IMG/VR virus record: IMGVR_UViG_3300042894_007411
Length of the DNA: 64,000 bases
Direction: 5' to 3' (one strand)
Source: a virus
Taxonomy: Duplodnaviria > Heunggongvirae > Uroviricota > Caudoviricetes
This document shows, piece after piece, positions 3,659 through 56,614 of the stretch. Positions within the stretch are counted from its first letter, which is position 1. Each line of letters opens with the position of its first letter. The notes beneath the pieces were generated by a model. It searched no databases, had not been told where the DNA came from, and worked only from the letters and a program-made list of their open reading frames with translations. The translations under genes were made by a program, and so were the position numbers.

Positions 3659-4195
3659 TTAAACAACTGGACCAACAAGTTCGGTTTTGGATTTCCGAAT
3701 TTTGAGGATGGATTCAAAGGAGTAGGTTCGAATGATAACCTTGTCAATCAAACCACCTTGTTCTCCCTCTGTTTTTGTGGGTAAACCTTGGACTTCTTCT
3801 TTGGAAATTTCCACCCCATCCAAGAGGTAGGTTGATTGACCGCCTCTCAGGAAAATACACTCAAGATATTCCTTTCCTTTGTGGGTGATGAAAGGGGAGT
3901 TTGGGATCCTTTCTCCCCATGCCCTAGGTCCTGGCTCCCAACATCCATTGGGGGAATCTGTTGCAAGGATTTCAAACACTCTGTTGGCTTCATGTTGCTT
4001 TGAAAGCCTCCGGTTGACCATGTTGAAGTAACCTTTGCCATTTTTGAAAATCATCACCCTTGAATTGGTGGTAAGTTTGGTGACCCTTCCTTGTTGAGGA
4101 TTGGATTTTCCCCCAAGCAAATCTACTTTGACGAGGGTATCAAGGCTGACGATTTGGCAACCTTTGAAAGAATTGATTTGAGATTTTTGAAACAT
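3659..4195 (-). CDS. conserved hypothetical phage protein
   Basis: Start MFQKSQ at 4195 just downstream of an N25 promoter; YFNMVNRRL / PRAWGERI motifs. Confidence 0.8.
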   Translation of the reverse strand: MFQKSQINSFKGCQIVSLDTLVKVDLLGGKSNPQQGRVTKLTTNSRVMIFKNGKGYFNMVNRRLSKQHEANRVFEILATDSPNGCWEPGPRAWGERIPNSPFITHKGKEYLECIFLRGGQSTYLLDGVEISKEEVQGLPTKTEGEQGGLIDKVIIRTYSFESILKIRKSKTELVGPVV

Positions 4196-4293
4196 ATGTG
4201 GTTGGTTTATGTCGTAAAGATACGACATTTTTACTAAGAATAAAACCAAAACCCCGAAAAGTTTTTCCCCAATTTATGGGGCTAAGTAAATTG

Positions 4294-4367
4294 TGATTCC
4301 ACTAGGACTCGAACCTAGGACCTACAAATTATGAGTTTGCAGCTCTAACCAACTGAGCTATGGAATC
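4294..4367 (-). tRNA. tRNA with CAU anticodon (Ile2 or elongator Met)
   Basis: Full cloverleaf GATTCCA / GCTC-AGTTGGTTA-GAGC / GCAAA-CTCATAA-TTTGT / CTAGG-TTCGAGT-CCTAG / TGGAATC-A. Confidence 0.92.
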
Positions 4368-4674
4368 TTTGGGTAAATTCTGTTTACGGTTTGTAGGGGT
4401 TTGTAAACAAAATTATGGTGGGTTGTTTAATTCATTTTTTTGATTTCCTCTATTAACTGAATAAACATGGATTTTGTTATATGTTCTTGTTTAACCCACA
4501 TATAAATTATGCCCATCCTTTCATGGTAATCTTTTTTAGTTTGTAATTTTTCAATGAGTTCCTTTATCATTTAACTATTTGTTTTTTCTTCTTTTGACCC
4601 GCCCGCGTTCGACGTATGTTAGTAATATACTATGTTAAAAAGTAACACCTAGCCGTTGTCTGTTTCGGAACGTG

Positions 4675-4772
4675 TAGTCAGGACAGGATTCGAACCTGCA
4701 CACCTCAGTGTTTTATAGTTCATCAACTATGCGTTTCCCAAATGATATGTCTACCAATTTCGCCACCTGACT
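4675..4772 (-). ncRNA. tRNA-like element E1 (AGTCAGG family, 98 nt)
   Basis: Acceptor AGTCAGG/CCTGACT-A, Leu-type D-arm start, T-arm GCAGG-TTCGAAT-CCTGT, no canonical anticodon arm. Confidence 0.75.
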
Positions 4773-4875
4773 ATTTGTTTAACGATACGGTATTACATTA
4801 TTTTCAATACACCATAAGTAATACTCTCTGTTGTCAATGTAATAATCTTTCATTGTTTCTATTTTTAATTGTTAG

Positions 4876-5007
4876 TAGTCAGGACAGGACTCGAACCTGT
4901 GCCTTGAGACTGACCCCTTGCTGACCTTTAGGTATCCACATCCTACCAGACTTGATGTGATATTTCTTTATCTGGGGAGCTGCTCTAACCAACTGAGCTA
5001 CCTGACT
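4876..5007 (-). ncRNA. tRNA-like element E2 (132 nt)
   Basis: Same acceptor and T-arm; class I D-arm TAGCTCAGTTGGTTAGAGC; about 80-nt unrelated core. Confidence 0.75.
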
Positions 5008-5012
5008 GTGTT

Positions 5013-5210
5013 TTATTCCTCAATATATGTCCACTTTTTAATATCTTTCTCATCACAATAATCATCATATGATGGAAGATACCACTCACCATTTTTATAA
5101 TAACACACCTCAAACTTTGGTGTGTTTTTTAATGATGTCCGAATCAAAACCCAACTATTATCTTTGGGAGGTATTTTGTCTTTTTTGAAATCTATCCAAT
5201 TCATATCCAT
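5013..5210 (-). CDS. small phage protein, DUF551-like
   Basis: MNWIDFKKDKIPP...VLI...YYKNGEW...IKKWTYI pattern. Confidence 0.65.
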   Translation of the reverse strand: MDMNWIDFKKDKIPPKDNSWVLIRTSLKNTPKFEVCYYKNGEWYLPSYDDYCDEKDIKKWTYIEE

Positions 5211-5212
5211 AC

Positions 5213-5419
5213 TTAAGAATTAAACAATCTTTTATATTCACTTTCACAAGTATCTCGTTTGTTTAATGGGTGAACGTCATTCCACTCACCTATATCAACA
5301 CATTTGACATCTTTTACCTTGGGGTAAATGTAACTAGTGTTTTCAATTAATTGTGTAATTTCTTGTTCACCGACATTTTTTATATCAATAACCAGTAATT
5401 CTACTTTATATGCTTTCAT
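5213..5419 (-). CDS. hypothetical protein
   Basis: 68-aa ORF between tRNA-like elements. Confidence 0.75.
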   Translation of the reverse strand: MKAYKVELLVIDIKNVGEQEITQLIENTSYIYPKVKDVKCVDIGEWNDVHPLNKRDTCESEYKRLFNS

Positions 5420-5433
5420 ATTTTTATTTTTAG

Positions 5434-5566
5434 CAGTCAGGACAGGATTCGAACCTGTGGTGCAAGTTATTAGGTGAAGTAATACTCTTCATTCATCAGA
5501 CTGAGCTGAACCTCTCATTACCTTGCCGACTTGTAGTAGTTGCGTCTGCCATTCCGCCACATGACT
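5434..5566 (-). ncRNA. tRNA-like element E3 (133 nt)
   Basis: AGTCATG-TGGCGGAATGGCAGACGC ... ACAGGTTCGAATCCTGT-CCTGACT-G. Confidence 0.75.
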
Positions 5567-5696
5567 ATTTTATTTTTTTATGCTGTCAACATTCTTATTA
5601 CAACACCTAACAATACTGAGTAAATCATTGCGGTAATTGCAAAACCAATCATTATACCATCAAAATATGTTTTTTCCTTTTTCATAACTTTAAATT

Positions 5697-5906
5697 TTAG
5701 GATTTCTGTCTTATCCAAACCTCACCACATTTTTCACACTCTTGTCGGTCTTTAAAATTTCGTACATCATGCTCGCAAACCGATTTCATAACAGCAGATT
5801 GGCGTAATACTTTGGCATACTCATCGGCAAAGTTAAGTGCCATTTCTAAAGTCCAGTGTCTCGTTTCAATCATTCGAGTTGATTTGTAATATTCTTTTGC
5901 TGTCAT
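5697..5906 (-). CDS. hypothetical protein, C-terminal CxxC-type Zn-ribbon-like motif
   Basis: CEH...CEKCG; internal SAVMKS from a TAAC half-site. Confidence 0.7.
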   Translation of the reverse strand: MTAKEYYKSTRMIETRHWTLEMALNFADEYAKVLRQSAVMKSVCEHDVRNFKDRQECEKCGEVWIRQKS

Positions 5907-6095
5907 AACCTTTATTTATGAACTGTGAGGTATTGACTTATCCTTTTGAATTACTTCTAGTGTATCTAGCTGTTCTTTCAAAGATTTAAGTTCTGTGTGA
6001 CAAATTAATAACTGCCTTTCCTTTTCTTTAATATGCAATTTTACATCGTAAATTGCTTTCTCAATTTTATTCATTGTGTTAATTAAAAATTTTAG

Positions 6096-6189
6096 TAGTC
6101 AGACAGGGTTCGAACCTGTATGTCAGCTTTACATTTCGTTGACTGACCGCACCTTGAAGCGAGCGTCTATCCAATTCCGCCACTTGACT
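6096..6189 (-). ncRNA. tRNA-like element E4, degenerate Leu(CAA)-like (94 nt)
   Basis: Leu-type D-arm, CGC-TTCAAGGT-GCG short anticodon hairpin, long variable hairpin GTCAG...CTGAC, acceptor stem one base short. Confidence 0.7.
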
Positions 6190-6195
6190 ATTTAT

Positions 6196-6411
6196 TTAAG
6201 TAAGCAAATCCCCACACTTTAGTATATCCCCAACCATTTTCTTGGTACCATTTTCATCAGTAATAGAATTTAGTTGATAGTGTTTTCCACTGTTGATTGC
6301 ATCAGCAGTTAAAAGGAATAATGCTTGGATAAATCCATTACAATAAGCAGTCAATTCATATGTGTGTCCATTACTGCTTTTAAATAAGCCTATGTACTTG
6401 TTATGTTTCAC
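6196..6411 (-). CDS. hypothetical protein
   Basis: 71-aa ORF downstream of an N25 promoter. Confidence 0.75.
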   Translation of the reverse strand: MKHNKYIGLFKSSNGHTYELTAYCNGFIQALFLLTADAINSGKHYQLNSITDENGTKKMVGDILKCGDLLT

Positions 6412-6543
6412 TGTATTTATTTTATTAAGACAAATATACTATTGAAATGAGATTAGAAAAAATGAAACCCCAGGCCAAAAGACCTGGGGCTTGAAAGGGA
6501 CCCAACCACAGATCCCTTTCGGGAGGGGGACTTTGGACTCCTA

Positions 6544-6894
6544 TTAGTCTTCCCCCTCCTGGTCCATTTCTTTTTTACGTTCAAGACCCCCAAACAAACC
6601 CCCCATCATTTTCTGAATTTCTTCTCGTTTGTTTTCGAATCCTGCGTGGATTTTTCCAACAAAATAACCTGCCAGAAGAAGTTTCTTTTCGTAACGTGTT
6701 AGGGAACCAGGAACATCCAGTTCCTCGGAACGAACAAAGTTACCACAGTCAAGAATGGTGTCAGAAACTGAATCACATTTCTTAAAGGAATTCACACATT
6801 CCTTAGCCAATGAATCGAAACAGGAATCTGATAAACTGAGACCTCCGGAGATAGTTTTTGGGTAGAATGGTGCGTCATGCGGATGATTTGACAT
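6544..6894 (-). CDS. hypothetical protein
   Basis: 116-aa ORF downstream of an N25 promoter. Confidence 0.75.
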   Translation of the reverse strand: MSNHPHDAPFYPKTISGGLSLSDSCFDSLAKECVNSFKKCDSVSDTILDCGNFVRSEELDVPGSLTRYEKKLLLAGYFVGKIHAGFENKREEIQKMMGGLFGGLERKKEMDQEGED

Positions 6895-6994
6895 AAAATA
6901 AGGGTTTAAAGGTTAATGATGTAAAGGTAAGATAAAATTTAGTGAAAAAAAAATGGAACCCCGATTTTATAAAATAAATTTGAAATTGTTTTAG

Positions 6995-7081
6995 TAGTCA
7001 GGACAGGATTCGAACCTGTGTTCAGGGACTCAAAGTAAGTAACCCTCTGAGTTTGAATGGCAATCTTTTCGCCACCTGACT
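6995..7081 (-). ncRNA. tRNA-like element E5 (87 nt)
   Basis: Perfect AGTCAGG/CCTGACT acceptor and ACAGG-TTCGAAT-CCTGT T-arm; eroded D-arm. Confidence 0.7.
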
Positions 7082-7145
7082 ATTTGTAATTTTGGCTTTT
7101 CATTTAGTATCCACAGAGCCCAAATTACTAAAATGAACTGTGCTG

Positions 7146-7267
7146 TAGTCAGGACAGGATTCGAACCTGTGACATTGCAACCCTTATACTTCCCGCGTCC
7201 TAATGATTATGAACCGTGTTGTTTTCGGGATGTGATAAACCTCTTTCACATTACGCAATACCTGACT
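7146..7267 (-). ncRNA. tRNA-like element E6 (122 nt)
   Basis: Perfect acceptor and T-arm; core unrelated to the other copies. Confidence 0.7.
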
Positions 7268-7481
7268 ATGTTTCCCCACCCTGAGATTTGGGGTGAGTAG
7301 TCATTCTGGTTTTTTCCTATTGATAAAACCTACAGGGCATCCCCTATTAAAACAGTCACACTACGAAGGAGGGGCTGTGAGTGGCACCTTTAGCCCTAAG
7401 AACCGGCATTCCGCTGTCCGATTTAAGCGAGTCCATTGTTTAAGTCTTGAACCAAAGACTCTGAGTATCTCTTACTCATTG

Positions 7482-7602
7482 CAGTCAGGACAGGACTCGA
7501 ACCCGTGGAGAACGGCTTGATAGTTTCTGCGCGAGGGCTACTTAATTCGCCACCCCTCAATCCTTGTTCTCAATTACGCTGCGGAACCACCGCCACCTGA
7601 CT
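7482..7602 (-). ncRNA. tRNA-like element E7 (121 nt)
   Basis: AGTCAGG-TGGCGG ... ACGGGTTCGAGTCCTGT-CCTGACT-G. Confidence 0.7.
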
Positions 7603-7763
7603 ATATTTAAAGTAACCCAACTCAGAGGGGTATTTGTTACATTATCACAGCTTTTGCAAAGTACTCTGGTTAATTACTCCGTCTGTACCCAACTGCTTTA
7701 TGTTGGCTTATAGCTGGCTATTTTAATGCAACTCACAACTTTATTTGTTGGAATTACTTTTTG

Positions 7764-7844
7764 TAGTCAGGGCAGGACTCGAACCTGCGGGAACTGTTTT
7801 GCCACGTAGGACTTATGTAGGCTCCACCATTTTGCCACCTGACT
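7764..7844 (-). ncRNA. tRNA-like element E8 (81 nt)
   Basis: AGTCAGG ... GCAGG-TTCGAGT-CCTGC-CCTGACT-A with a compensatory pair change in the T-stem. Confidence 0.7.
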
Positions 7845-8016
7845 GTGTGTACCGTTCCTATCTACTTTATGAACATACGGTACCAGATGCTTCATCATGA
7901 CCTTCGGATAGGTAAGTTTTGAGGATGAGAAGACCTCTGTGTTGTAAGTTGCCTACCATAAATGGTATCCTTTAGCATCTACTCAAGCAATTCCTTTCTC
8001 AAGGGAACAACACTAG

Positions 8017-8137
8017 CAGTAAGGACAGGCTTCGAACCTGTAAGGTCTCCATGACAGAGCCTATGGTGTGATTACGCTCACTCATCTTAGGGATGCGAAC
8101 CCATTCCAATACCGTTTACCAATTTCGGCACCTAACT
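8017..8137 (-). ncRNA. tRNA-like element E9 (121 nt)
   Basis: AGTTAGG-TGCCGAAATTGGTAAACGG ... ACAGGTTCGAAGCCTGT-CCTTACT-G. Confidence 0.65.
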
Positions 8138-8649
8138 AAAAAAGAAGGTTCTGGATCGTACCTGGACCAATCAGGAGAACCTTCAAATTGTATATAAAAG
8201 GTCATTTATAATCCTACCTATATTTCCAAGATCCTTTGGAATATAGTAACCATCCAAGGTAGGCCTATACTCTGGCACTCCGTCTGTACTTGTTGGCCTA
8301 ATCAATGTGTCATAGGTTTTCAGATACAGCGTTCAGTGTTACCCTCAGGACTTCTTCATCCTGCCCCCAAAGTTACGTGGGAACCTCACTTAGAAGTTTA
8401 AGTGTGTATCGTAGAATTGTCCAGTATTTCTACGACTTGTGGATTACAACACGACCAATTAAGGCCCCTTACCCTCTCAATCCATAATGAGGGACTCATT
8501 TATTCTCGTTCCCGACGTAACCTACTGAATACCTTCTGTGGTTATACGAATTTCACTTTTGTGTATCTTTCACCCATAGCCACGAAGACTTCCAGTCGTG
8601 GATCACACACCATAACGGATGAGTACTTCCGTTAATTGTGGGCTCTTTT
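8138..8649 (-). ncRNA. candidate large structured non-coding RNA
   Basis: No credible ORF; many hairpins (GAAGGTTCT/AGAACCTTC, CCTACC...GGTAGG enclosing a TTCCAA/TTGGAA stem, TCGTAGAA/TTCTACGA, CCACGA/TCGTGG, AACGGA/TCCGTT); strand assumed from the flanking RNA genes. Confidence 0.45.
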
Positions 8650-8746
8650 GTTGATTAATAAGGATTCGAACCTTAATCCTCCAGCCCTGTAGCGTTTCGT
8701 GTTCCCGAACCTACCGGGGCCAGTGTGCCCATTACACTATAATCAA
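8650..8746 (-). ncRNA. tRNA-like RNA with a structured insert replacing the anticodon loop
   Basis: TTGATTA/TAATCAA acceptor, GTGT/ACAC D-stem, GGCCC/GGGCT anticodon stem enclosing 29 nt, TAAGG-TTCGAAT-CCTTA T-arm. Confidence 0.7.
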
Positions 8747-9014
8747 TCGAGAGTTTCGAACCTCTCAGGTACCAAGGTAATTAATCTTGGACTTTGCAAT
8801 CGGTGTGAGAATCGAACTCACTCAAAAGGACGGTTCCTTTATCAGTTACACAAAGTAATTACTCCTTGCTTTACCTGCCGTGTAACGTTTTGTGGCCACT
8901 CCGCGTTACCAAATGTCAACCAAAGACATACCAATTCCGCTGTCTTCCCAGCTGTGTGGGTTTAGTATTGACTTACCCGTCAATGACGAGCTCTTGCCCC
9001 AAACCAAGGCTAGG

Positions 9015-9110
9015 TAGTCAGGACAGGAATCGAACCTGTGAGTATAGGATTAGCGCTTAGCCTATACACATCTTATTTCTAGAGTGCGTCTACCACTCCG
9101 CCACCTGACC
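9015..9110 (-). ncRNA. tRNA-like element E10 (96 nt)
   Basis: GGTCAGG-TG-GCG-GAGTGGTAGA-CGC, long variable hairpin GTATAGG...CCTATAC, ACAGG-TTCGATT-CCTGT-CCTGACT-A. Confidence 0.75.
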
Positions 9111-9339
9111 AAATAAAGGGACTGGTTACCCCTTAAGTACCGTTTTCCCGGTTGACGATCTTTCTGTTCACACCATGCCACTTTTTTTAGGCATTACAGT
9201 GACTGGTTGTTCCCTACTCCAACTACCAGAAAGATCTCGTTGAAAGCAAGGCCGGGTCTAAAAATGGAAAGCAATAACTTTCCAAATGAACCATTTTCCA
9301 TTTTCAGTCTCCCGACTGAAGATGATGATTTTTCCAAAA

Positions 9340-9351
9340 TGTCAAAGAACA
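9340..9351 (-). promoter_or_regulatory. boxA-like antitermination signal TGTTCTTTGACA
   Basis: Close to rRNA-operon boxA (TGCTCTTTAACA); lies at the 5' end of the leftward RNA cluster. Confidence 0.5.
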
Positions 9352-9361
9352 AAATCTTTAG

Positions 9362-9432
9362 TAGCGGGTGGGGGTAACGCTCCCCCTACACACCTTGGGT
9401 TATGAGCCCAGGCTGCTACTAAGCTACCCGCA
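9362..9432 (-). tRNA. degenerate initiator tRNA-fMet(CAU)
   Basis: 1:72 mismatch (U:U), GCGGGT/ACCCGC stem, TGGG-CTCATAA-CCCA with three G-C pairs; D-arm and T-loop (GAGCGTT) non-canonical. Confidence 0.65.
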
Positions 9433-9444
9433 TAAATATCTATC

Positions 9445-9852
9445 TTACCACCATGAATCGTACCAAATTGTGAATCCTTCCTTTAATGCCTGTGATGCCT
9501 TTTCTAGAAATTCAATGTCTTTCTCCTTCATTTCATCAGACGACTTACCAAAATTAAAACCTTCAGTAATGGGAAGTTCATCATCAATAACCAAAGCACC
9601 AATCCTATCTAAATCTTCCTGGGTAAGTTTGACAGGAGTACAGTTGAAATGATTTTCTTTACCTCCCTTTTCCCTGTAAATTTTTTCCATCAAACCATGA
9701 AGATTTGGATGGTTTCTCCAGTGAAAAAATTTTTCTGGTTTATGAATGGTTCCATCATTTTCCACAAGGAAATCTATTTCTTCATGGAAATCGACAGTGT
9801 TAGAAGGTTTGAATTCCTTCATTTTATAAACATACATATCTAATCCACCCAT
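9445..9852 (-). CDS. conserved hypothetical phage protein (GLDMY...WRNHPNLHG...YDSWW)
   Basis: 135-aa ORF downstream of an N25 promoter. Confidence 0.85.
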   Translation of the reverse strand: MGGLDMYVYKMKEFKPSNTVDFHEEIDFLVENDGTIHKPEKFFHWRNHPNLHGLMEKIYREKGGKENHFNCTPVKLTQEDLDRIGALVIDDELPITEGFNFGKSSDEMKEKDIEFLEKASQALKEGFTIWYDSWW

Positions 9853-25647: not shown

Positions 25648-25670
25648 AAGGATATGTGGGTTTAATTGTG

Positions 25671-25743
25671 TGATCCCGACTGGACTCGAACCAGTAACCT
25701 ACTGCTTAGAAGGCAGTTGCTCTATCCATTGAGCTACGGGACC
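25671..25743 (-). tRNA. tRNA-Arg(UCU)
   Basis: GGTCCCG-TA-GCTC-AATGGATA-GAGC-A-ACTGC-CTTCTAA-GCAGT-AGGTT-ACTGG-TTCGAGT-CCAGT-CGGGATC-A. Confidence 0.95.
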
Positions 25744-26283: not shown

Positions 26284-26499
26284 TTATACAGCAGAACCAA
26301 CATTTGATTTCGTTTCCACCTCCTTTAAAACCTCGATCCAATACAGATGCATCACAATCAACTCTGGGTGGATTTCGGTACAGTTAATTAAGGATTGTAT
26401 GTTTTTTAAACAATCATTTACTGTTTTTTTACCCAACATCTCTTTTGCCTTCTGGGAGGGAGAAAGTGCAGGCAAATCAAACAAAACAGATTGGCTCAT
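26284..26499 (-). CDS. hypothetical protein
   Basis: 71 aa, ATGA-coupled to the sigma gene. Confidence 0.7.
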   Translation of the reverse strand: MSQSVLFDLPALSPSQKAKEMLGKKTVNDCLKNIQSLINCTEIHPELIVMHLYWIEVLKEVETKSNVGSAV

Positions 26500-27380
26500 A
26501 GACTTGGTTCAAATTGAATTCTTCTTGCTCCGGATTTCATTTTCGTGATCGCCTTACGGTGAATGATCTCTGCCTTCTGTTTTGAAATTCCAAATTTCAA
26601 ACCAATTTCTATGTATGTCAATGGGTAATCATATCCCACTCCATGATGTAATGTCACGATGTCTTTTTCTAAAGGAGTTAAAGAAAGCAACAACTTATTA
26701 ACCATCTTCTTTTCGTCATCCTTGTTCAACACATCTTCTGGTGTATCTTCACCGGAATCAATTATCTCATACAGGTTAGAGTCTTCTGCTGTTTCTAGGG
26801 GCTTGTCCAAAGAGACAGACACAAAATTTTGGCCTGTCACAAATTTAAAGGTATCAAAGGTTAGATTTTCTCTTTTGAGTTCTTCCTTCATGTATTCAAA
26901 TACCTCCATCTCTGTGGCCTCCCTACCAATCCTAGCAAAAAGGTAACATTTCGCATCCTCTGCTTTTTGAACTAAACGTAATTGATTGGGCGGGATGTAC
27001 ACTGTTCTTTTAAACTTCTGTATGTAAAGAATCATTTCCTTTCGGATATGCCAAACAGCAAAGGAGATAAATCTAAATCCCTTGGTTGGATCAAATCTAT
27101 CTGCTGCATCCACCAGCCCCACGTTGCCCACAGCCACCATCTCCTGCTGTGATTCTTCATTACTAGCATACATCTTGGCAACCGATAACACAAACCTCAA
27201 ATTTGAGGTAACCAGCTTTTCTCTGGCTTTGGCATTACCATTAAAGGCCTGGGTGGCTATTTCGTATTCCTCATCTGGTGACATGATGGGTATTCGGGAT
27301 ACCTCCCTCAAATACACCTGGGTTGAAAACTTCTGGCTGAGAGTAAATGTCTCAACTTTTTTAAATTGTCTCATGCCCAT
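26496..27380 (-). CDS. RNA polymerase sigma-70 family factor (RpoD/SigA-like, no region 1.1)
   Basis: YLREV (1.2), NLRFVLSVAK (2.1), GNVGLVDAADRFDPTKGFRFISFAVWHIR (2.2-2.4), SLDKPL (3), region 4 HTH. Confidence 0.93.
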   Translation of the reverse strand: MGMRQFKKVETFTLSQKFSTQVYLREVSRIPIMSPDEEYEIATQAFNGNAKAREKLVTSNLRFVLSVAKMYASNEESQQEMVAVGNVGLVDAADRFDPTKGFRFISFAVWHIRKEMILYIQKFKRTVYIPPNQLRLVQKAEDAKCYLFARIGREATEMEVFEYMKEELKRENLTFDTFKFVTGQNFVSVSLDKPLETAEDSNLYEIIDSGEDTPEDVLNKDDEKKMVNKLLLSLTPLEKDIVTLHHGVGYDYPLTYIEIGLKFGISKQKAEIIHRKAITKMKSGARRIQFEPSL

Positions 27381-54336: not shown

Positions 54337-54735
54337 TCAGGTTGGATCGTGTGTGGATAATTTCCATTTCCACCCTTCAATCATCAATGAAGCAGTGGCA
54401 TAATTCGTGGCTAGTGGCACATTGTAAACATTGCAAACTCTTAGAAGCATATTTACGTCCACAATGTGAGGATGAACAGCCAAGGGGTCGATAAAAAACA
54501 CGACCCCATCCACATGTCCGTCTGCTATCATGGCGGCGATTTGGGCGTCACCCCCCATAGGTCCAGACTTCTTTTTCTCTACCCGAATCCCAGCATGTTC
54601 GATGTGTGTACCTGTGGTACCGGTGGCCACGATGTTGTGGAGGCAAAAGAAATCCATTCTTTTCATGATGAAAGCAACTATGTCAGCTTTTTTCCCATCA
54701 TGTGCAATAACTGCTATGTTTAGCGGTTTGTTCAT
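54337..54735 (-). CDS. mgsA: methylglyoxal synthase
   Basis: IAHDGKK, ATGTTG, SGPMGGDAQI, FFIDPL..HPH..DVNMLLRVCNVYNVPLATN.ATA. Confidence 0.93.
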   Translation of the reverse strand: MNKPLNIAVIAHDGKKADIVAFIMKRMDFFCLHNIVATGTTGTHIEHAGIRVEKKKSGPMGGDAQIAAMIADGHVDGVVFFIDPLAVHPHIVDVNMLLRVCNVYNVPLATNYATASLMIEGWKWKLSTHDPT

Positions 54736-55757
54736 AATTTTCTAAATTCTGGCTTCAAAATTTTCCAAATAGAATGGGTAATGTCCTTTCCGTCAAGAAG
54801 ACTAAAAAGCAAATTGGGATGTCTAAATCTGGTGGCCTGTTCCGCATAGGACTTCCGGTCGGAGGGATTAATTTTTCCAAGAATTTCTTGATGATAAGAA
54901 ACATAGTCTTTTCGAATGTTGTCAAACCTAAGTGTTAAATCACCAGCTACCTCTTGGACCTTCCGATAAAATTCATCAGGTACATCCACAAGTAAATTAG
55001 TGAAATCCCCACCGGAAGCCAAAACCTCCCAGATGGCTGTCGTGGAGAGATTGGTCATGATTTTATGTAATCGCAAATATTCCTCTCCTTTGATTTTCAT
55101 CCTATCTCCATTCGAAAAACGGATCACAAAACCCTCTGCCTTATCGGAAATTTTCCCTTTTAAAGTGGAATAATCTAAAATCCCATCGTATCTGGGAGTT
55201 ATATCACAAACAATATATTTGGAAGTTAGATTTAAAATTTCGTAAGACATCTCTAATCCATCGTGGGTCCTAAATGCTCCCAAAAGGGTGAGTTTATCTT
55301 CGTTACCGTAATCTACTACAATCCGGTTCCAAGGAGCAGTTAATTCAAATAAATAGGTATACTCGTCATCAAGAGTTGAAGTGTCAAGAGCATCAAGCAG
55401 TTTTTGTCCAGCAACGGCCTGATCTGAGGTGAAAGAACCTCTAGAGGAGACGAACCAACGGTCCCACACGAAAAATGCAATTATCAGGGATCCGTCTATC
55501 TTTTCAAACACTTCGAAATCAGGAGTTGGGTTATGTTTGCCTTCCTCCAAATTAAAGAATTTACGGAAGGGCCTGGCACAGATTGTACCATCATCTGTCC
55601 AGGTAACCAATCCCCGGCAACTCAAAGTTACCTCGTCCCAAAGGGATTCGTATTGGACCTTTTCAGTGTAATTCCAAATTTCAAGGGGATACACTGGATG
55701 TTTCTGATGGTACAATAGACCTTGCTGGGCGTATTGACGTAAAGTTTGAAGTTCCAT
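54732..55757 (-). CDS. RNA ligase, T4 Rnl1-like
   Basis: CRGLV, ARPFRKFFN, motif I EKIDGSL, SRGSF, EGFVIRF, MKIKGEEY. Confidence 0.88.
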   Translation of the reverse strand: MELQTLRQYAQQGLLYHQKHPVYPLEIWNYTEKVQYESLWDEVTLSCRGLVTWTDDGTICARPFRKFFNLEEGKHNPTPDFEVFEKIDGSLIIAFFVWDRWFVSSRGSFTSDQAVAGQKLLDALDTSTLDDEYTYLFELTAPWNRIVVDYGNEDKLTLLGAFRTHDGLEMSYEILNLTSKYIVCDITPRYDGILDYSTLKGKISDKAEGFVIRFSNGDRMKIKGEEYLRLHKIMTNLSTTAIWEVLASGGDFTNLLVDVPDEFYRKVQEVAGDLTLRFDNIRKDYVSYHQEILGKINPSDRKSYAEQATRFRHPNLLFSLLDGKDITHSIWKILKPEFRKL

Positions 55758-55834: not shown

Positions 55835-56614
55835 TTAATCCTTGAAATTATAAATTTTACTGTACCTAATTTTAGGGTTAGACCTTATAGCTCTTGCCTT
55901 CTCATATTCTGTAGACTCTTCCATCCATGGGAGTTTTAAATAATCGGTTGATTTCCAAATTTGACTGTCTATTTTTTCCTCTATGTAATAATAAGAAGCG
56001 ATCGACATTCTTGGTTTTTTACCCTTAAAGGGGAAGGGCTGCCCATGGAAATTGTCCCGAGTATCAAATATTACCCAGGAATTAAATTGATTAAGTAGTT
56101 TGGTAACTTTTCCATCCTTCCAAAATTCTAATGATCCGTTGTTGAATTCCTGATCCTCGTCAGTCAAATATCCGATAACATTAATGCACCTCAAAAGCTG
56201 TTTTGTATTTGAATATGAATCTGGTAAAACGTTGAAGTCTTTATGGATAGAAAGATATCCACCATGTTTAGTTTTATGCAAACCACCTCCCCATCTTTTT
56301 TCATCAACTTTAAGATTTTCTAGTCCTGTTATTTTTTGTATAAAACTTACAAATTCATCGGAATGAATATAAATAAACAATCTTTTCAAATTTTCTGGCA
56401 TTTTATCCAAATTGTTTAATGTATATTTTTCAAACTCGAAATAGGGATCAGAGTACTTAAAAAAATCTTCATCCGATAAATCTAAAAATTCTTTTTCACA
56501 AATTTTGATAAAATCAGAATCAAAAAGGTCTTGTAATACAACGTGATTAGGGGAATTTTCTATGTAATTTTTTTTTAATTCTTCCAGATTCAAATTTTGA
56601 TTTAAAAATTTCAT
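55835..56614 (-). CDS. 2OG-Fe(II) oxygenase (prolyl-4-hydroxylase-like)
   Basis: GGGLH...LSIHKDFN (HxD), GSLEFW, FHG, R.SIASYYY. Confidence 0.85.
   Translation of the reverse strand: MKFLNQNLNLEELKKNYIENSPNHVVLQDLFDSDFIKICEKEFLDLSDEDFFKYSDPYFEFEKYTLNNLDKMPENLKRLFIYIHSDEFVSFIQKITGLENLKVDEKRWGGGLHKTKHGGYLSIHKDFNVLPDSYSNTKQLLRCINVIGYLTDEDQEFNNGSLEFWKDGKVTKLLNQFNSWVIFDTRDNFHGQPFPFKGKKPRMSIASYYYIEEKIDSQIWKSTDYLKLPWMEESTEYEKARAIRSNPKIRYSKIYNFKD

What the first reader, a model, noticed from the sequence alone, without database searches (positions are those of the whole stretch)
4675..9110. Ten tRNA-shaped RNAs with one shared acceptor stem and T-arm but unrelated cores
Seen in sequence: ten leftward elements (4675, 4876, 5434, 6096, 6995, 7146, 7482, 7764, 8017, 9015; 81-133 nt) keep AGTCAGG/CCTGACT plus ACAGG-TTCGAAT-CCTGT. 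Deviations are few, and at least one is compensatory (E8 T-stem). The D-arm is Leu-type, class-I-type or eroded. The anticodon/variable region differs completely in sequence and length, and no element has a canonical 7-nt anticodon loop with U33. Random pseudogene decay would not spare only the top half. Known: RNase P, 3'-end processing/CCA-adding enzymes and EF-Tu recognise the acceptor/T-arm minihelix, and bacterial LeuRS relies on A73 rather than the anticodon. Inference: a tRNA scaffold either releases and stabilises diverse small cargo RNAs or acts as a decoy library against tRNA-targeting defences (anticodon nucleases, uncharged-tRNA sensing). The repeats may also be recombination handles, since small ORFs sit between them.
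Basis: partly seen in the sequence, partly recalled or inferred. Interest (0 to 1): 0.9.

Follow-up and report, generated by a model that had tools for sequence, protein, structure and literature searches.

The report
Phage tRNA-chassis RNAs with swapped cores
An uncultured 219-kb phage carries at least twelve RNA genes that keep the upper half of a leucine tRNA but have unrelated folded inserts where the codon-reading arm should be. They belong to a very large, phage-only and apparently unpublished family that probably uses the cell's tRNA-maturation enzymes to make stable small RNAs of unknown function.

Summary
All ten minus-strand elements exist at the stated coordinates. ARAGORN calls none of them a tRNA. 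I found two further tRNA-shaped RNAs with other acceptor sequences (8797-8936, 8651-8745) in the same non-coding island.

It also occurs in 18 MAG contigs, mostly Bacteroidota, where every copy is again an odd-core element. It is absent from 50,697 GenBank phages. In my sample, 220 distinct elements fall into 184 payload classes.

Flanks match those of genuine tRNA genes in the same contigs (U at -1, A73, C74). Payloads are conserved with covariation: the E6 class has 29 variants. One payload sits in three different but always base-paired acceptor and T stems. So payload plus tRNA-like shape are selected, not the chassis sequence.

Best reading (0.55): a tRNA-Leu-derived top half lets host RNase P, 3'-end enzymes and the CCA-adding enzyme excise and stabilise diverse payload RNAs, and also releases their neighbours. 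Payload function is unknown. Pseudogene decay is excluded; decoy, punctuation-only and charged-carrier readings remain open.

The closest known natural analogue is T4 RNAC. This scan already reported the same family on other genomes (e1-1836382, e1-5404840, e1-3635875). I found no paper describing it.

The parts
4675..4772 (-). E1, chassis RNA, 98 nt. Acceptor AGTCAGG/CCTGACT, A73, partly eroded Leu-type D region. The payload has two small hairpins.
   Evidence: R1 65.5 bits; Rfam tRNA 35.3 bits with inserts; fold. No payload orthologue in the loci held.
4876..5007 (-). E2, chassis RNA, 132 nt. Class-I D-arm with a 17-nt stretch identical to that of the neighbouring tRNA-Met. An alternative 77-nt form starts at the internal AGTCTGG (4952).
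   Evidence: Rfam tRNA 46.1 bits with 76 nt skipped; R1 picks 4876-4952 at 38.1 bits; D-arm identity to tRNA-Met.
5434..5566 (-). E3, chassis RNA, 133 nt. Leu-type D-arm, U6xC67 mismatch, G73.
   Evidence: R1 37.9 bits; payload orthologue in L010, 84% over 94 nt.
6096..6189 (-). E4, chassis RNA, 94 nt. The most tRNA-Leu-like core: a 4-bp stem with the 8-nt loop TTCAAGGT, plus a long variable-arm hairpin. The acceptor is damaged (A6, one base deleted).
   Evidence: R1 53.1 bits; the L010 orthologue (93% over 60 nt) has an intact acceptor and ARAGORN calls it tRNA-??? with anticodon (caag).
6995..7081 (-). E5, chassis RNA, 87 nt. Short D hairpin. The payload is an 8-bp hairpin with a 9-nt loop.
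   Evidence: R1 60.6 bits; payload orthologues in L150 and L166, 91% over 43 nt; core z = -2.9.
7146..7267 (-). E6, chassis RNA, 122 nt, with no Leu-type D-arm. It is the long form of a widespread payload class that has short (~81 nt) and long (~121 nt) forms.
   Evidence: The class-specific 19-mer occurs in 38 IMG/VR contigs. In the alignment of 29 distinct variants, 6 of 24 pairs show compensatory changes, including a payload helix with A-U in 21 and U-A in 8 sequences.
7482..7602 (-). E7, chassis RNA, 121 nt, G73.
   Evidence: R1 29.6 bits; payload orthologues in L026, L183 and L184 at 98-99%, while the flanks are not alignable.
7764..7844 (-). E8, chassis RNA, 81 nt. T-stem GCAGG/CCTGC (compensatory change at 49-65).
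   Evidence: R1 58 bits; Rfam tRNA 30.4 bits. No payload orthologue found.
8017..8137 (-). E9, chassis RNA, 121 nt. The payload holds a second T-arm-like hairpin. U4xU69 mismatch, G73.
   Evidence: R1 35.3 bits; orthologues in L184 (94%), L058 (85%, intact acceptor) and L020 (75%).
9015..9110 (-). E10, chassis RNA, 96 nt. G1.U72, Leu-type D-arm, 7-bp payload hairpin with a 12-nt loop.
   Evidence: R1 56.9 bits; Rfam tRNA 38.8 bits. Whole-element blastn matches (71-79%) in L056, L083, L118 and others. By eye, the payload stem of L056 and L083 covaries with E10's and part of the loop is kept.
8797..8936 (-). Acceptor AATTGGT/ACCGATT, T-arm GTGAG-TTCGATT-CTCAC, G73 C74. Its payload is orthologous to one carried in a standard chassis in L051 and in a third chassis in L010.
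   Evidence: Generic acceptor + T-arm scan, 7/7 pairs. In alignment A4, payload identity is 77-79% pairwise, while all 12 stem pairs stay paired under three different sequences.
8651..8745 (-). E12, a second tRNA-shaped RNA with another chassis. Acceptor TGATTAT/TTAATCA (6 of 7 paired), D-arm GTG-TAATGGG-CAC, T-arm TAAGG-TTCGAAT-CCTTA, A73 C74.
   Evidence: Generic scan. Homologues in L048, L016, L010 and L039, with pair 4-69 as U-A, U.G or C-G.
8937..9014 (-). Conserved 78-nt spacer RNA between E10 and E11. In the two relatives aligned (L010, L039) it likewise lies between two tRNA-shaped elements.
   Evidence: Alignment with L010 and L039.
8746..8796 (-). Conserved spacer between E11 and E12 with two hairpins: one with loop ATTAATTA, one T-arm-like (GAGAG-GTTCGAAA-CTCTC).
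   Evidence: Alignment A5 with four relatives.
7268..7481 (-). 'Block G', a conserved structured RNA of about 214 nt that fills the gap between E7 and E6. In relatives it also lies between a chassis element and the next tRNA or chassis element.
   Evidence: Homologues in L010, L055, L075 and L137; 18 of 52 predicted pairs show compensatory changes. No Rfam match.
4293..4367 (-). Canonical tRNA-Met(CAT) at the downstream end of the array. It shows that the array is part of the phage's tRNA region.
   Evidence: ARAGORN; Rfam tRNA 71.2 bits.

Best explanation
The elements are genes for small, non-decoding RNAs built on a tRNA-Leu-derived chassis. The chassis is a 7-bp acceptor stem stacked on a 5-bp T-stem with a UUCGAAU loop, usually with a Leu-type D-arm that supplies the G18G19 elbow. 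The anticodon and variable arms are replaced by a payload domain.

Inferred mechanism: the elements are transcribed leftward together with the neighbouring small ORFs and other RNAs. Host RNase P cuts in front of A1. The host tRNA 3'-end pathway trims after N73/C74, and the CCA-adding enzyme completes the end. The result is a compact, tRNA-like and therefore stable RNA that presents its payload.

The same cuts free the RNAs and short mRNAs lying between elements. The payload is the part with a specific, still unknown, trans-acting role, most plausibly binding a host or phage macromolecule.

Shown here: the anatomy, the tRNA-type flanks, the family size, the payload conservation and covariation, and the independence of payload from chassis sequence. 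Inferred: transcription, processing, stability and any payload activity.
For: 1. All ten share the chassis, and none has an anticodon arm.

2. Across 220 distinct elements, position -1 is T in 76%, N73 is A in 91% and position 74 is C in 98%. In 214 genuine tRNA genes of the same contigs, -1 is T in 69% and C74 is present in 90%. So the chassis elements carry the same end signals as real tRNAs.

3. In other phages they lie inside clusters of canonical tRNA genes.

4. In alignment A3 (145 distinct sequences), 99.4% of stem cells are paired. Nine of 12 pairs show compensatory changes, against 0.8 in shuffles. U8, A14 and T54-T55-C56-A58 are invariant, and A15, G18 and T48 nearly so, in the Leu-type subset.

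5. Payloads are conserved units. The E6 class has 29 variants with covarying payload helices. E7, E9, E3, E4 and E5 have orthologues at 84-99% identity. For E6, E7 and E9, homology stops at the element's ends.

6. The E11 payload occurs with three different acceptor/T-stem sequences, all fully paired. Structure, not the AGTCAGG sequence, is what goes with the payload.

7. In the island at 7260-9240 most of the sequence between elements also has homologues in related arrays, in blocks that start or end at tRNA-like boundaries.

8. T4 RNAC, a stable RNA from the T4 tRNA cluster, has a comparable tRNA-shaped domain.
Against: There are no expression, end-mapping or CCA data. No cultured phage carries the family, and the metagenome scan for encoded or added CCA gave only internal genomic matches.

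Payload thermodynamic z-scores are ordinary. Four of the ten payloads (E1, E2, E8, E10) have no orthologue at E<1e-3 in the roughly 190 loci held, and three elements have flawed acceptor stems here, so some copies may be decaying.

The near-invariance of the AGTCAGG chassis is not explained by processing alone, because RNase P, RNase Z and the CCA enzyme read shape. Each pair is the consensus in 82% (pair 49-65; the rest mostly G-U) to 100% of sequences. Canonical tRNA-Leu genes of the same contigs have very varied acceptor stems.

No payload motif is shared across classes. There is no long antisense match to the phage genome. BLAST found no payload homologue in 401 Bacteroidota genomes. So there is no clue to a target.
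Confidence: 0.55

Rival explanations
1. Decoys or sponges. Only the tRNA top half matters. It soaks up a host factor that recognises acceptor stem, T-arm and tail, such as a tRNA-tail or acceptor-stem nuclease or another tRNA-binding defence protein. The payload is a tolerated stuffer that only has to fold.
For: The top half is the invariant part. Copy number per genome is high: 10-12 here against 3 genuine tRNAs. [quoted passage not shown] The phage also carries an Rnl1-type RNA ligase, a T4 tRNA-repair enzyme family, which suggests pressure from tRNA-targeting defences. MAG contigs carrying the elements are mostly Bacteroidota.
Against: Payload loops and junction bases are conserved across diverged stems in the E6 class and the six-member class. 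The E11 payload is kept while the chassis sequence drifts. A stuffer would not be conserved at 77-99% identity when the flanks are unalignable. Ten different payloads are not needed to raise decoy dosage.
Confidence: 0.15
2. Punctuation only. The elements are processing signals, like mitochondrial tRNAs or plant t-elements. Their sole job is to cut long transcripts into the neighbouring small mRNAs and non-coding RNAs. The excised tRNA-like piece is a by-product.
For: E2, E3 and E4 are followed within 14-22 nt by the ATG of a small ORF. Conserved spacer RNAs are bounded by element ends. The flanks match those of real tRNAs.
Against: A processing signal needs no payload, yet payloads are long (median 54 nt), conserved and covarying. 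E5/E6 and E7/E8 are separated by short, partly unconserved spacers, where cutting would release nothing obvious. Genuine tRNAs would do the same job.
Confidence: 0.12
3. Charged carriers. The RNAs are leucylated by host LeuRS, which in bacteria reads A73 and the tRNA core rather than the anticodon. They then deliver or sequester leucine, or engage EF-Tu, the ribosome or an aminoacyl-tRNA-dependent transferase, without decoding.
For: A73 is present in 91%. A Leu-type D-arm with A14, A15, G18G19 and U48 is present in 138 of 184 payload classes. LeuRS identity rests on A73 and core structure (PMC2377443, listed; otherwise textbook knowledge).
Against: About a quarter of classes, including E6, lack the Leu D-arm. 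E11, E12, E3, E7 and E9 have G73 or other acceptor stems. A73 and the D-arm can simply be inherited from the tRNA-Leu ancestor. No aminoacyl-transferase or LeuRS gene was seen nearby; the neighbours have no recognisable families.
Confidence: 0.06
4. DNA-level modules. The constant 5' (~26 nt) and 3' (~24 nt) segments are kept identical by gene conversion. They serve as homology arms that shuffle units between co-infecting phages. Chassis uniformity reflects recombination and a high birth rate of new units, not RNA function.
For: Arrays are mosaics. Orthologous units appear in different orders and neighbourhoods, with homology ending at unit boundaries. The chassis sequence is far more uniform than the acceptor stems of canonical tRNA-Leu genes in the same contigs. 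Homing-endonuclease-like genes are among the commoner neighbours.
Against: Compensatory changes in both stems and tRNA-type end signals show selection at the RNA level. This mechanism may explain the uniformity, but it does not replace an RNA function.
Confidence: 0.05
5. Decaying tRNA pseudogenes from a former tRNA array.
For: E3, E4 and E9 have acceptor mismatches in this genome. E1, E2, E8 and E10 have no detected payload orthologues at E<1e-3.
Against: Hundreds of contigs carry the same intact top half with non-anticodon cores. Both chassis and payloads covary. Relatives do not have normal anticodon arms at these loci.
Confidence: 0.03

Closest known systems
Bacteriophage T4 RNAC (species 1 RNA) and RNAD, small stable RNAs of the T4 tRNA gene cluster
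   Same: They are encoded inside a phage tRNA cluster, non-coding and non-decoding. RNAC ends in a T-arm (CCGGG-TTCGAAT-CCCGG) followed by a 7-nt strand that pairs with an upstream strand (7/7 with one G.U). Model R1 scores this 92-nt domain at 20.1 bits, within the range of T4's genuine tRNAs. Their function has been unknown for decades (PMC3014915, PMC9697503).
   Different: T4 has single copies, with no shared chassis and no swapped payloads. RNAC has a 46-nt 5' extension. I found no similarity to the AGTCAGG chassis beyond the generic T-arm. RNAD has no T-arm. The Rfam tRNA model does not detect RNAC.
Engineered tRNA scaffolds for recombinant RNA expression (payload inserted in place of the anticodon loop; from my own knowledge, Ponchon and Dardel 2007; PMC3753655 listed)
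   Same: The logic is the same. A tRNA body gives recognition by the processing enzymes and protection from nucleases, and an arbitrary structured RNA replaces the anticodon region.
   Different: These are man-made. They keep the anticodon stem as a connector. The natural elements replace both the anticodon and variable arms, and sometimes the D-arm too.
Class II bacterial and phage tRNA-Leu (Rfam RF00005)
   Same: Acceptor/T-arm geometry, D-arm GGCGGAATTGGTAGACGC, A15-U48, A73, C74 and U at -1. A few family members still carry Leu anticodon loops (TAA, TAG, CAA).
   Different: None of the ten has an anticodon arm. The acceptor stem starts A1-U72 and is nearly invariant, whereas canonical tRNA-Leu genes of the same contigs start G1-C72 and vary.
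tmRNA tRNA-like domain and bacterial Y-RNA-like YrlA
   Same: Both are RNAs that keep an acceptor/T-arm module and replace the anticodon arm with other domains.
   Different: tmRNA needs G3.U70 and a tag reading frame; here the pair is U3-A70 and there is no frame. In YrlA the tRNA-like module is internal and closed by a Ro-binding stem. Neither Rfam model hits the array at E<=1.
Murine gammaherpesvirus 68 tRNA-miRNA encoded RNAs (TMERs) and plant mitochondrial t-elements (from my own knowledge; PMC1920247 listed)
   Same: A tRNA-like structure is used as a handle for RNase P or RNase Z to release adjacent RNAs.
   Different: These are eukaryotic systems, and the cargo lies beside the tRNA-like unit, not inside it.

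Membership tests
Canonical decoding tRNA (Rfam RF00005 / ARAGORN definition) | 7-bp acceptor stem and a 5-bp T-stem with a T-loop UUCRANY | tested here: met
   All ten. Three have one acceptor mismatch.
Canonical decoding tRNA (Rfam RF00005 / ARAGORN definition) | Anticodon arm: 5-bp stem, 7-nt loop with U33 and a purine at 37, at positions 27-43 | tested here: not met
   No element has one. ARAGORN calls none. The Rfam alignments skip 17-76 nt at this place.
Canonical decoding tRNA (Rfam RF00005 / ARAGORN definition) | Score at or above the Rfam gathering threshold (29 bits) | tested here: inconclusive
   Six of ten reach 30.4-46.1 bits, only through local skips. E3 scores 28.5. E4, E6, E7 and E9 are not reported.
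AGTCAGG 'tRNA-chassis' RNA family (unpublished; defined in this scan) | Acceptor AGTCAGG/CCTGACT, T-arm ACAGG-TTCGAAT-CCTGT, N73 mostly A, C74 | tested here: met
   Ten elements with 0-3 deviations. Family statistics.
AGTCAGG 'tRNA-chassis' RNA family (unpublished; defined in this scan) | Non-anticodon payload that differs between copies and recurs as orthologues in other phages | tested here: met
   184 payload classes among 220 elements. Orthologues of E3-E7 and E9.
AGTCAGG 'tRNA-chassis' RNA family (unpublished; defined in this scan) | Processed, stable RNA with a 5' end at A1 and an added CCA | not testable with these tools
   No transcript data. The CCA scan of metagenome contigs gave only internal genomic matches.
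T4 RNAC-type stable RNA | Lies in a phage tRNA cluster and has an acceptor-like stem plus T-arm without an anticodon arm | tested here: met
   Array next to tRNA-Met. T4 RNAC anatomy.
T4 RNAC-type stable RNA | Sequence homology to T4 RNAC | tested here: not met
   No GenBank phage, T4 included, matches E10 by blastn or the array (4200-9300) by megablast. Only the generic T-arm is shared.
tmRNA | G3.U70 alanine identity pair and an internal tag reading frame | tested here: not met
   Pair 3-70 is U-A in 140 of 143 sequences. There is no tmRNA hit in the array. The genome's tmRNA lies elsewhere.
YrlA / bacterial Y RNA | Match to Rfam RF02553, with the tRNA-like module closed by a Ro-binding stem | tested here: not met
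   No YrlA match in 4000-9500 at E<=1.

The most novel reading that the evidence does not exclude
The chassis is a natural, evolvable display scaffold. Phages of freshwater Bacteroidota carry libraries of tRNA-scaffolded RNA aptamers or mimics. Each payload neutralises or hijacks a different host RNA-binding protein, for example defence nucleases, toxin-antitoxin components or regulators. New payloads are swapped in between the constant halves by recombination. That would make this an RNA-based counter-defence or takeover arsenal with hundreds of specificities.
Probability: 0.2. Interest if true: 0.9.

Novelty: new variant of a known kind. Interest (0 to 1): 0.8.

Why it matters
If the reading holds, phages invented the tRNA scaffold long before RNA engineers did, and use it at scale. 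From 88 metagenome contigs with the rare encoded-CCA form, which is 2.3% of my sample, I roughly extrapolate several thousand elements in the JGI metagenome collection.

It would make the 50-year-old puzzle of T4 RNAC one case of a general class. It would define a large set of compact, naturally selected structured RNAs, with more than 180 payload classes in this small sample, whose targets could be found by pull-down. It would also add a rule to phage annotation: 'pseudo' or missed tRNA-like hits in tRNA clusters are genes.

The E11 series shows that the payload, not the chassis sequence, is what selection follows. That points experiments at the payloads.

Tried and rejected
1. Host tRNA mimicry or attP. 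The 23-mer occurs in only 18 of about 185,000 species genomes. All are MAG contigs, and every copy is itself an odd-core element, so it is not a host tRNA.

2. Known RNA families in the payloads or spacers. Rfam at E<=1 on the array and E<=0.1 on eight related arrays gave only tRNA hits. Outside the window there were also a near-threshold freshwater-1 hit, a tmRNA and a weak YrlA-like hit.

3. Antisense regulation of phage genes. There is no complementarity beyond chance between the ten payloads and the 219-kb genome.

4. Payloads copied from host DNA. BLAST of the array against 401 Bacteroidota genomes matched almost only generic tRNA-like parts; the bulk of hits fall on the class-I D-arm of E2.

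5. A dedicated protein partner. No ORF family occurs in more than 15 of 120 chassis loci, or in more than 10 of 38 E6-class loci. The window's neighbours have no Pfam or PHROG family.

6. A shared payload motif. None was found beyond residual D-arm words. A UAAUUA palindromic loop shared by E11 and the next spacer is not enriched elsewhere.

7. CCA addition seen in assemblies. The chassis 3' end plus CCA occurs in 88 metagenome contigs, always internal, so it is encoded there. This is uninformative.

8. Cultured relatives. None among 50,697 GenBank phage records.

9. A phage-encoded CCA-adding enzyme or a T4-type capsid. Neither was found; the Gp23 search had no positive control.

10. Literature. 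Six searches, including the sequence itself, found no description.

11. Intron-containing or quadruplet-decoding tRNA. Removing an insert never restores a cloverleaf. Only E4 and its L010 orthologue keep an 8-nt CAAG-containing loop, and E4's acceptor is damaged here.

Full report
**What is there**

On the minus strand of window 4675-9110 lie ten elements of 81-133 nt. Each begins with AGTCAGG (or a one-base variant) and ends with ACAGG-TTCGAAT-CCTGT-CCTGACT plus a discriminator base.
- The 23-nt 3' motif has 9 hits at up to 3 mismatches, against none in 100 shuffles. The tenth copy (6096-6189) has a one-base deletion.
- ARAGORN finds only two genuine tRNAs in the window, Met at 4293-4367 and Arg at 25670-25743, and none of the ten.
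- The Rfam tRNA model reaches threshold for six of them, only by skipping 17-76 nt where the anticodon arm belongs.
- No element has a 5-bp stem with a 7-nt U33/R37 loop at the anticodon position.
- A covariance model built only from relatives (R1) recovers exactly these ten at 29.6-65.5 bits, in the window and in the whole genome.

The genome is a 219,475-bp IMG/VR virus record with 36% G+C. It has three genuine tRNAs and a tmRNA.

Some details need correction. E3, E4 and E9 each have a flawed acceptor stem here, E2 has two possible 5' strands, and core folding energies are not unusual.

**The family**

- I extracted 226 elements (220 distinct) of 61-259 nt. Model R1 gives 210 hits in the first 100 loci.
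- ARAGORN accepts only about 18% as tRNA, mostly with implausible anticodons. About a dozen keep Leu anticodons.
- Among about 185,000 species genomes the motif occurs in only 18 MAG contigs, mostly Chitinophagia, Saprospirales, Flavobacterium and other Bacteroidota. Every copy there is again an odd-core element. So it is not a host tRNA, and the hosts are probably Bacteroidota.
- No GenBank phage has it, and six literature searches found no description.
- Earlier notes of this scan (e1-1836382, e1-5404840, e1-3635875) describe the same family on other genomes. My results agree with them and were obtained independently here.

**Chassis**

In the 145 distinct best R1 matches, 99.4% of stem cells are paired. 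Nine of 12 pairs show compensatory changes, against 0.8 in shuffles. The helices are therefore real.

Yet each pair is the consensus pair in 82% (pair 49-65; the rest mostly G-U) to 100% of sequences. The canonical tRNA-Leu genes in the same contigs have very diverse G1-C72 acceptor stems.

Among tRNA-shaped elements in these loci that ARAGORN rejects, about 160 of 185 use the AGTCAGG stem or a one-base variant. U8, A14 and T54-T55-C56-A58 are invariant, and A15, G18 and T48 nearly so, in the Leu-type subset. 138 of 184 payload classes keep a Leu-type D-arm.

**Flanks**

| Position | Chassis elements (220 distinct) | Genuine tRNA genes of the same loci (214) |
|---|---|---|
| -1 | T in 76% | T in 69% |
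| N73 | A in 91% | not tabulated |
| 74 | C in 98% | C in 90% |
| After 74 | A/T-rich | A/T-rich |

CCA is not encoded in the elements. They therefore carry the same end signals as real tRNAs. In other phages they sit inside clusters of canonical tRNAs.

**Payloads**

The 220 elements fall into 184 payload clusters, 160 of them singletons, and no k-mer is shared across classes. They are nevertheless not junk.
- The class of E6 is found in 38 contigs through a class-specific 19-mer.
- Its 29 distinct variants align cleanly. They come in a short form of about 81 nt and a long form of about 121 nt that carries an extra inserted hairpin domain.
- They show compensatory changes in a payload helix (A-U in 21, U-A in 8), in a GG-loop hairpin and in the T-stem. 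Many junction bases are invariant.
- E7, E9, E4, E5 and E3 have orthologues at 84-99% identity. For E6, E7 and E9 the blastn homology ends at the element's boundaries.
- E1, E2, E8 and E10 have no orthologue at E<1e-3 in the loci held.

**Two more elements and the key series**

The supposedly empty stretch at 8040-9015 holds two further tRNA-shaped RNAs with other stems: E11 (8797-8936) and E12 (8651-8745).

The E11 payload is orthologous (77-79% pairwise) to a payload carried in three different chassis:

| Source | Acceptor stem | T-stem |
|---|---|---|
| L051 | AGTCAGG/CCTGACT | ACAGG/CCTGT |
| L010 | AGTCGGT/ACCGACT | GCAAG/CTTGC |
| Window | AATTGGT/ACCGATT | GTGAG/CTCAC |

All 12 pairs are kept in each. 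This shows that selection follows the payload together with a tRNA-like minihelix shape. The AGTCAGG sequence itself is dispensable.

**The island**

In 7260-9240 most of the sequence between elements also has homologues in related arrays.
- Block G (7268-7481) has homologues in four loci, with 18 of 52 pairs compensatory.
- A 78-nt spacer (8937-9014) and a two-hairpin spacer (8746-8796) recur between tRNA-like units in relatives.
- Further blocks at 9116-9238, 8243-8647 and 7848-8013 have homologues too.
- Downstream, E4-E1 alternate with small ORFs whose start codons lie 14-22 nt after an element's end.

**Interpretation**

The data fit a tRNA-Leu-derived chassis that recruits host RNase P, the tRNA 3'-end pathway and the CCA-adding enzyme. 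That these enzymes read the acceptor/T-arm/elbow shape is established knowledge. The phage has no CCA enzyme of its own. Processing would excise and stabilise payload RNAs and, as a side effect, release the neighbouring RNAs and mRNAs.

Processing, stability and payload activity are inferred; nothing here measures RNA.

The chassis uniformity is best explained by a high birth rate of new units from a common template, plus gene conversion between the constant halves. The mosaic arrays support this, and so do the drifted older units E11 and E12.

**Rivals**

- Pseudogene decay is excluded by the family-wide conservation.
[quoted passage not shown] It also fits the phage's Rnl1-type RNA ligase. 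It does not explain payload conservation.
- Punctuation only does not explain payloads either.
- Leucylation is possible for the Leu-type majority but is not required, and it cannot hold for D-arm-less classes.

**Comparison with what is known**

The closest natural precedent is T4 RNAC. It is a stable RNA of the T4 tRNA cluster with unknown function (PMC3014915, PMC9697503). Its 3' 92 nt form a comparable tRNA-shaped domain, which R1 scores at 20.1 bits, like T4's own tRNAs. Functionally the elements work like engineered tRNA scaffolds. They are not canonical tRNAs, tmRNA or YrlA (see the membership tests).

Noticed in passing
window 7268-7481 (-): Block G: a conserved structured RNA of about 214 nt. 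Its 5' part is invariant (two hairpins), and 18 of 52 predicted pairs are covarying. It has homologues in L010, L055, L075 and L137, no Rfam match, and is always flanked by tRNA or chassis units.
   Followed up: partly
window 8243-8647 (-), 7848-8013 (-), 9116-9238 (-): Further non-coding blocks of the island have homologues in other arrays: L044; L026, L075, L057 and L020; and L010. I did not fold or classify them.
   Followed up: no
window 7676-7688 and 8277-8289 (-): An exact 13-mer, GTACAGACGGAGT, occurs twice in the RNA island. Each copy sits inside a similar context of about 45 nt (GCCAACA ... CCAGAGTA). Two or more matches arose in 7 of 100 shuffles, so this may be chance.
   Followed up: partly
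window 54732-55757 (-): A T4 Rnl1-type RNA ligase (PF09511, 66 bits), the enzyme family T4 uses to repair nuclease-cut tRNA. The next gene (55835-56614) is a 2OG-Fe(II) oxygenase. I did not look for a polynucleotide kinase-phosphatase partner.
   Followed up: partly
window 26496-27380 (-): A phage-encoded sigma-70 family factor with regions 1.2, 2 and 4.
   Followed up: no
genome C1:26337-26430 (-), outside the window: Another tRNA-shaped RNA with a different acceptor (ACGTAAG/CTTGCGT), a normal D-arm, and a 5-bp stem with a 10-nt loop in place of the anticodon loop. Rfam tRNA scores it at 32.4 bits.
   Followed up: partly
window 4981-5006 (-) versus 4342-4358 (-): A 17-nt stretch of the E2 D-arm is identical to that of the neighbouring tRNA-Met, and many Bacteroidota tRNAs match it too. 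E2 may be a chimera of a class-I tRNA 5' half and a 77-nt chassis element.
   Followed up: partly
window 6465-6492 (-): A strong intrinsic-terminator-like hairpin (12 bp, T-run) after the 116-aa ORF. It splits the array into at least two transcription units: E12-E5 upstream and E4-E1 downstream.
   Followed up: no
L016:4124-4186 (+), L075:5724-6218 (+), L075:11258-11367 (+): Related phage tRNA clusters also hold a near-threshold freshwater-1 RNA (70.1 of 72 bits), a tmRNA, and a weak YrlA-like hit (35 bits).
   Followed up: no
L075:4211-4391, L103:3736-3917, L139 (rc 2339-2464), L120 (rc 645-779): Some family members carry an extra hairpin inserted inside the D-loop, between GGAA(T) and (T)GGTAGACGC. 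The chassis therefore tolerates payloads at a second site while keeping G18G19.
   Followed up: no
L151, L170, L178 (E6-class short forms): In three contigs the 81-nt E6-class RNA is followed directly by a conserved spacer and a strong terminator, so there it ends a transcription unit.
   Followed up: no
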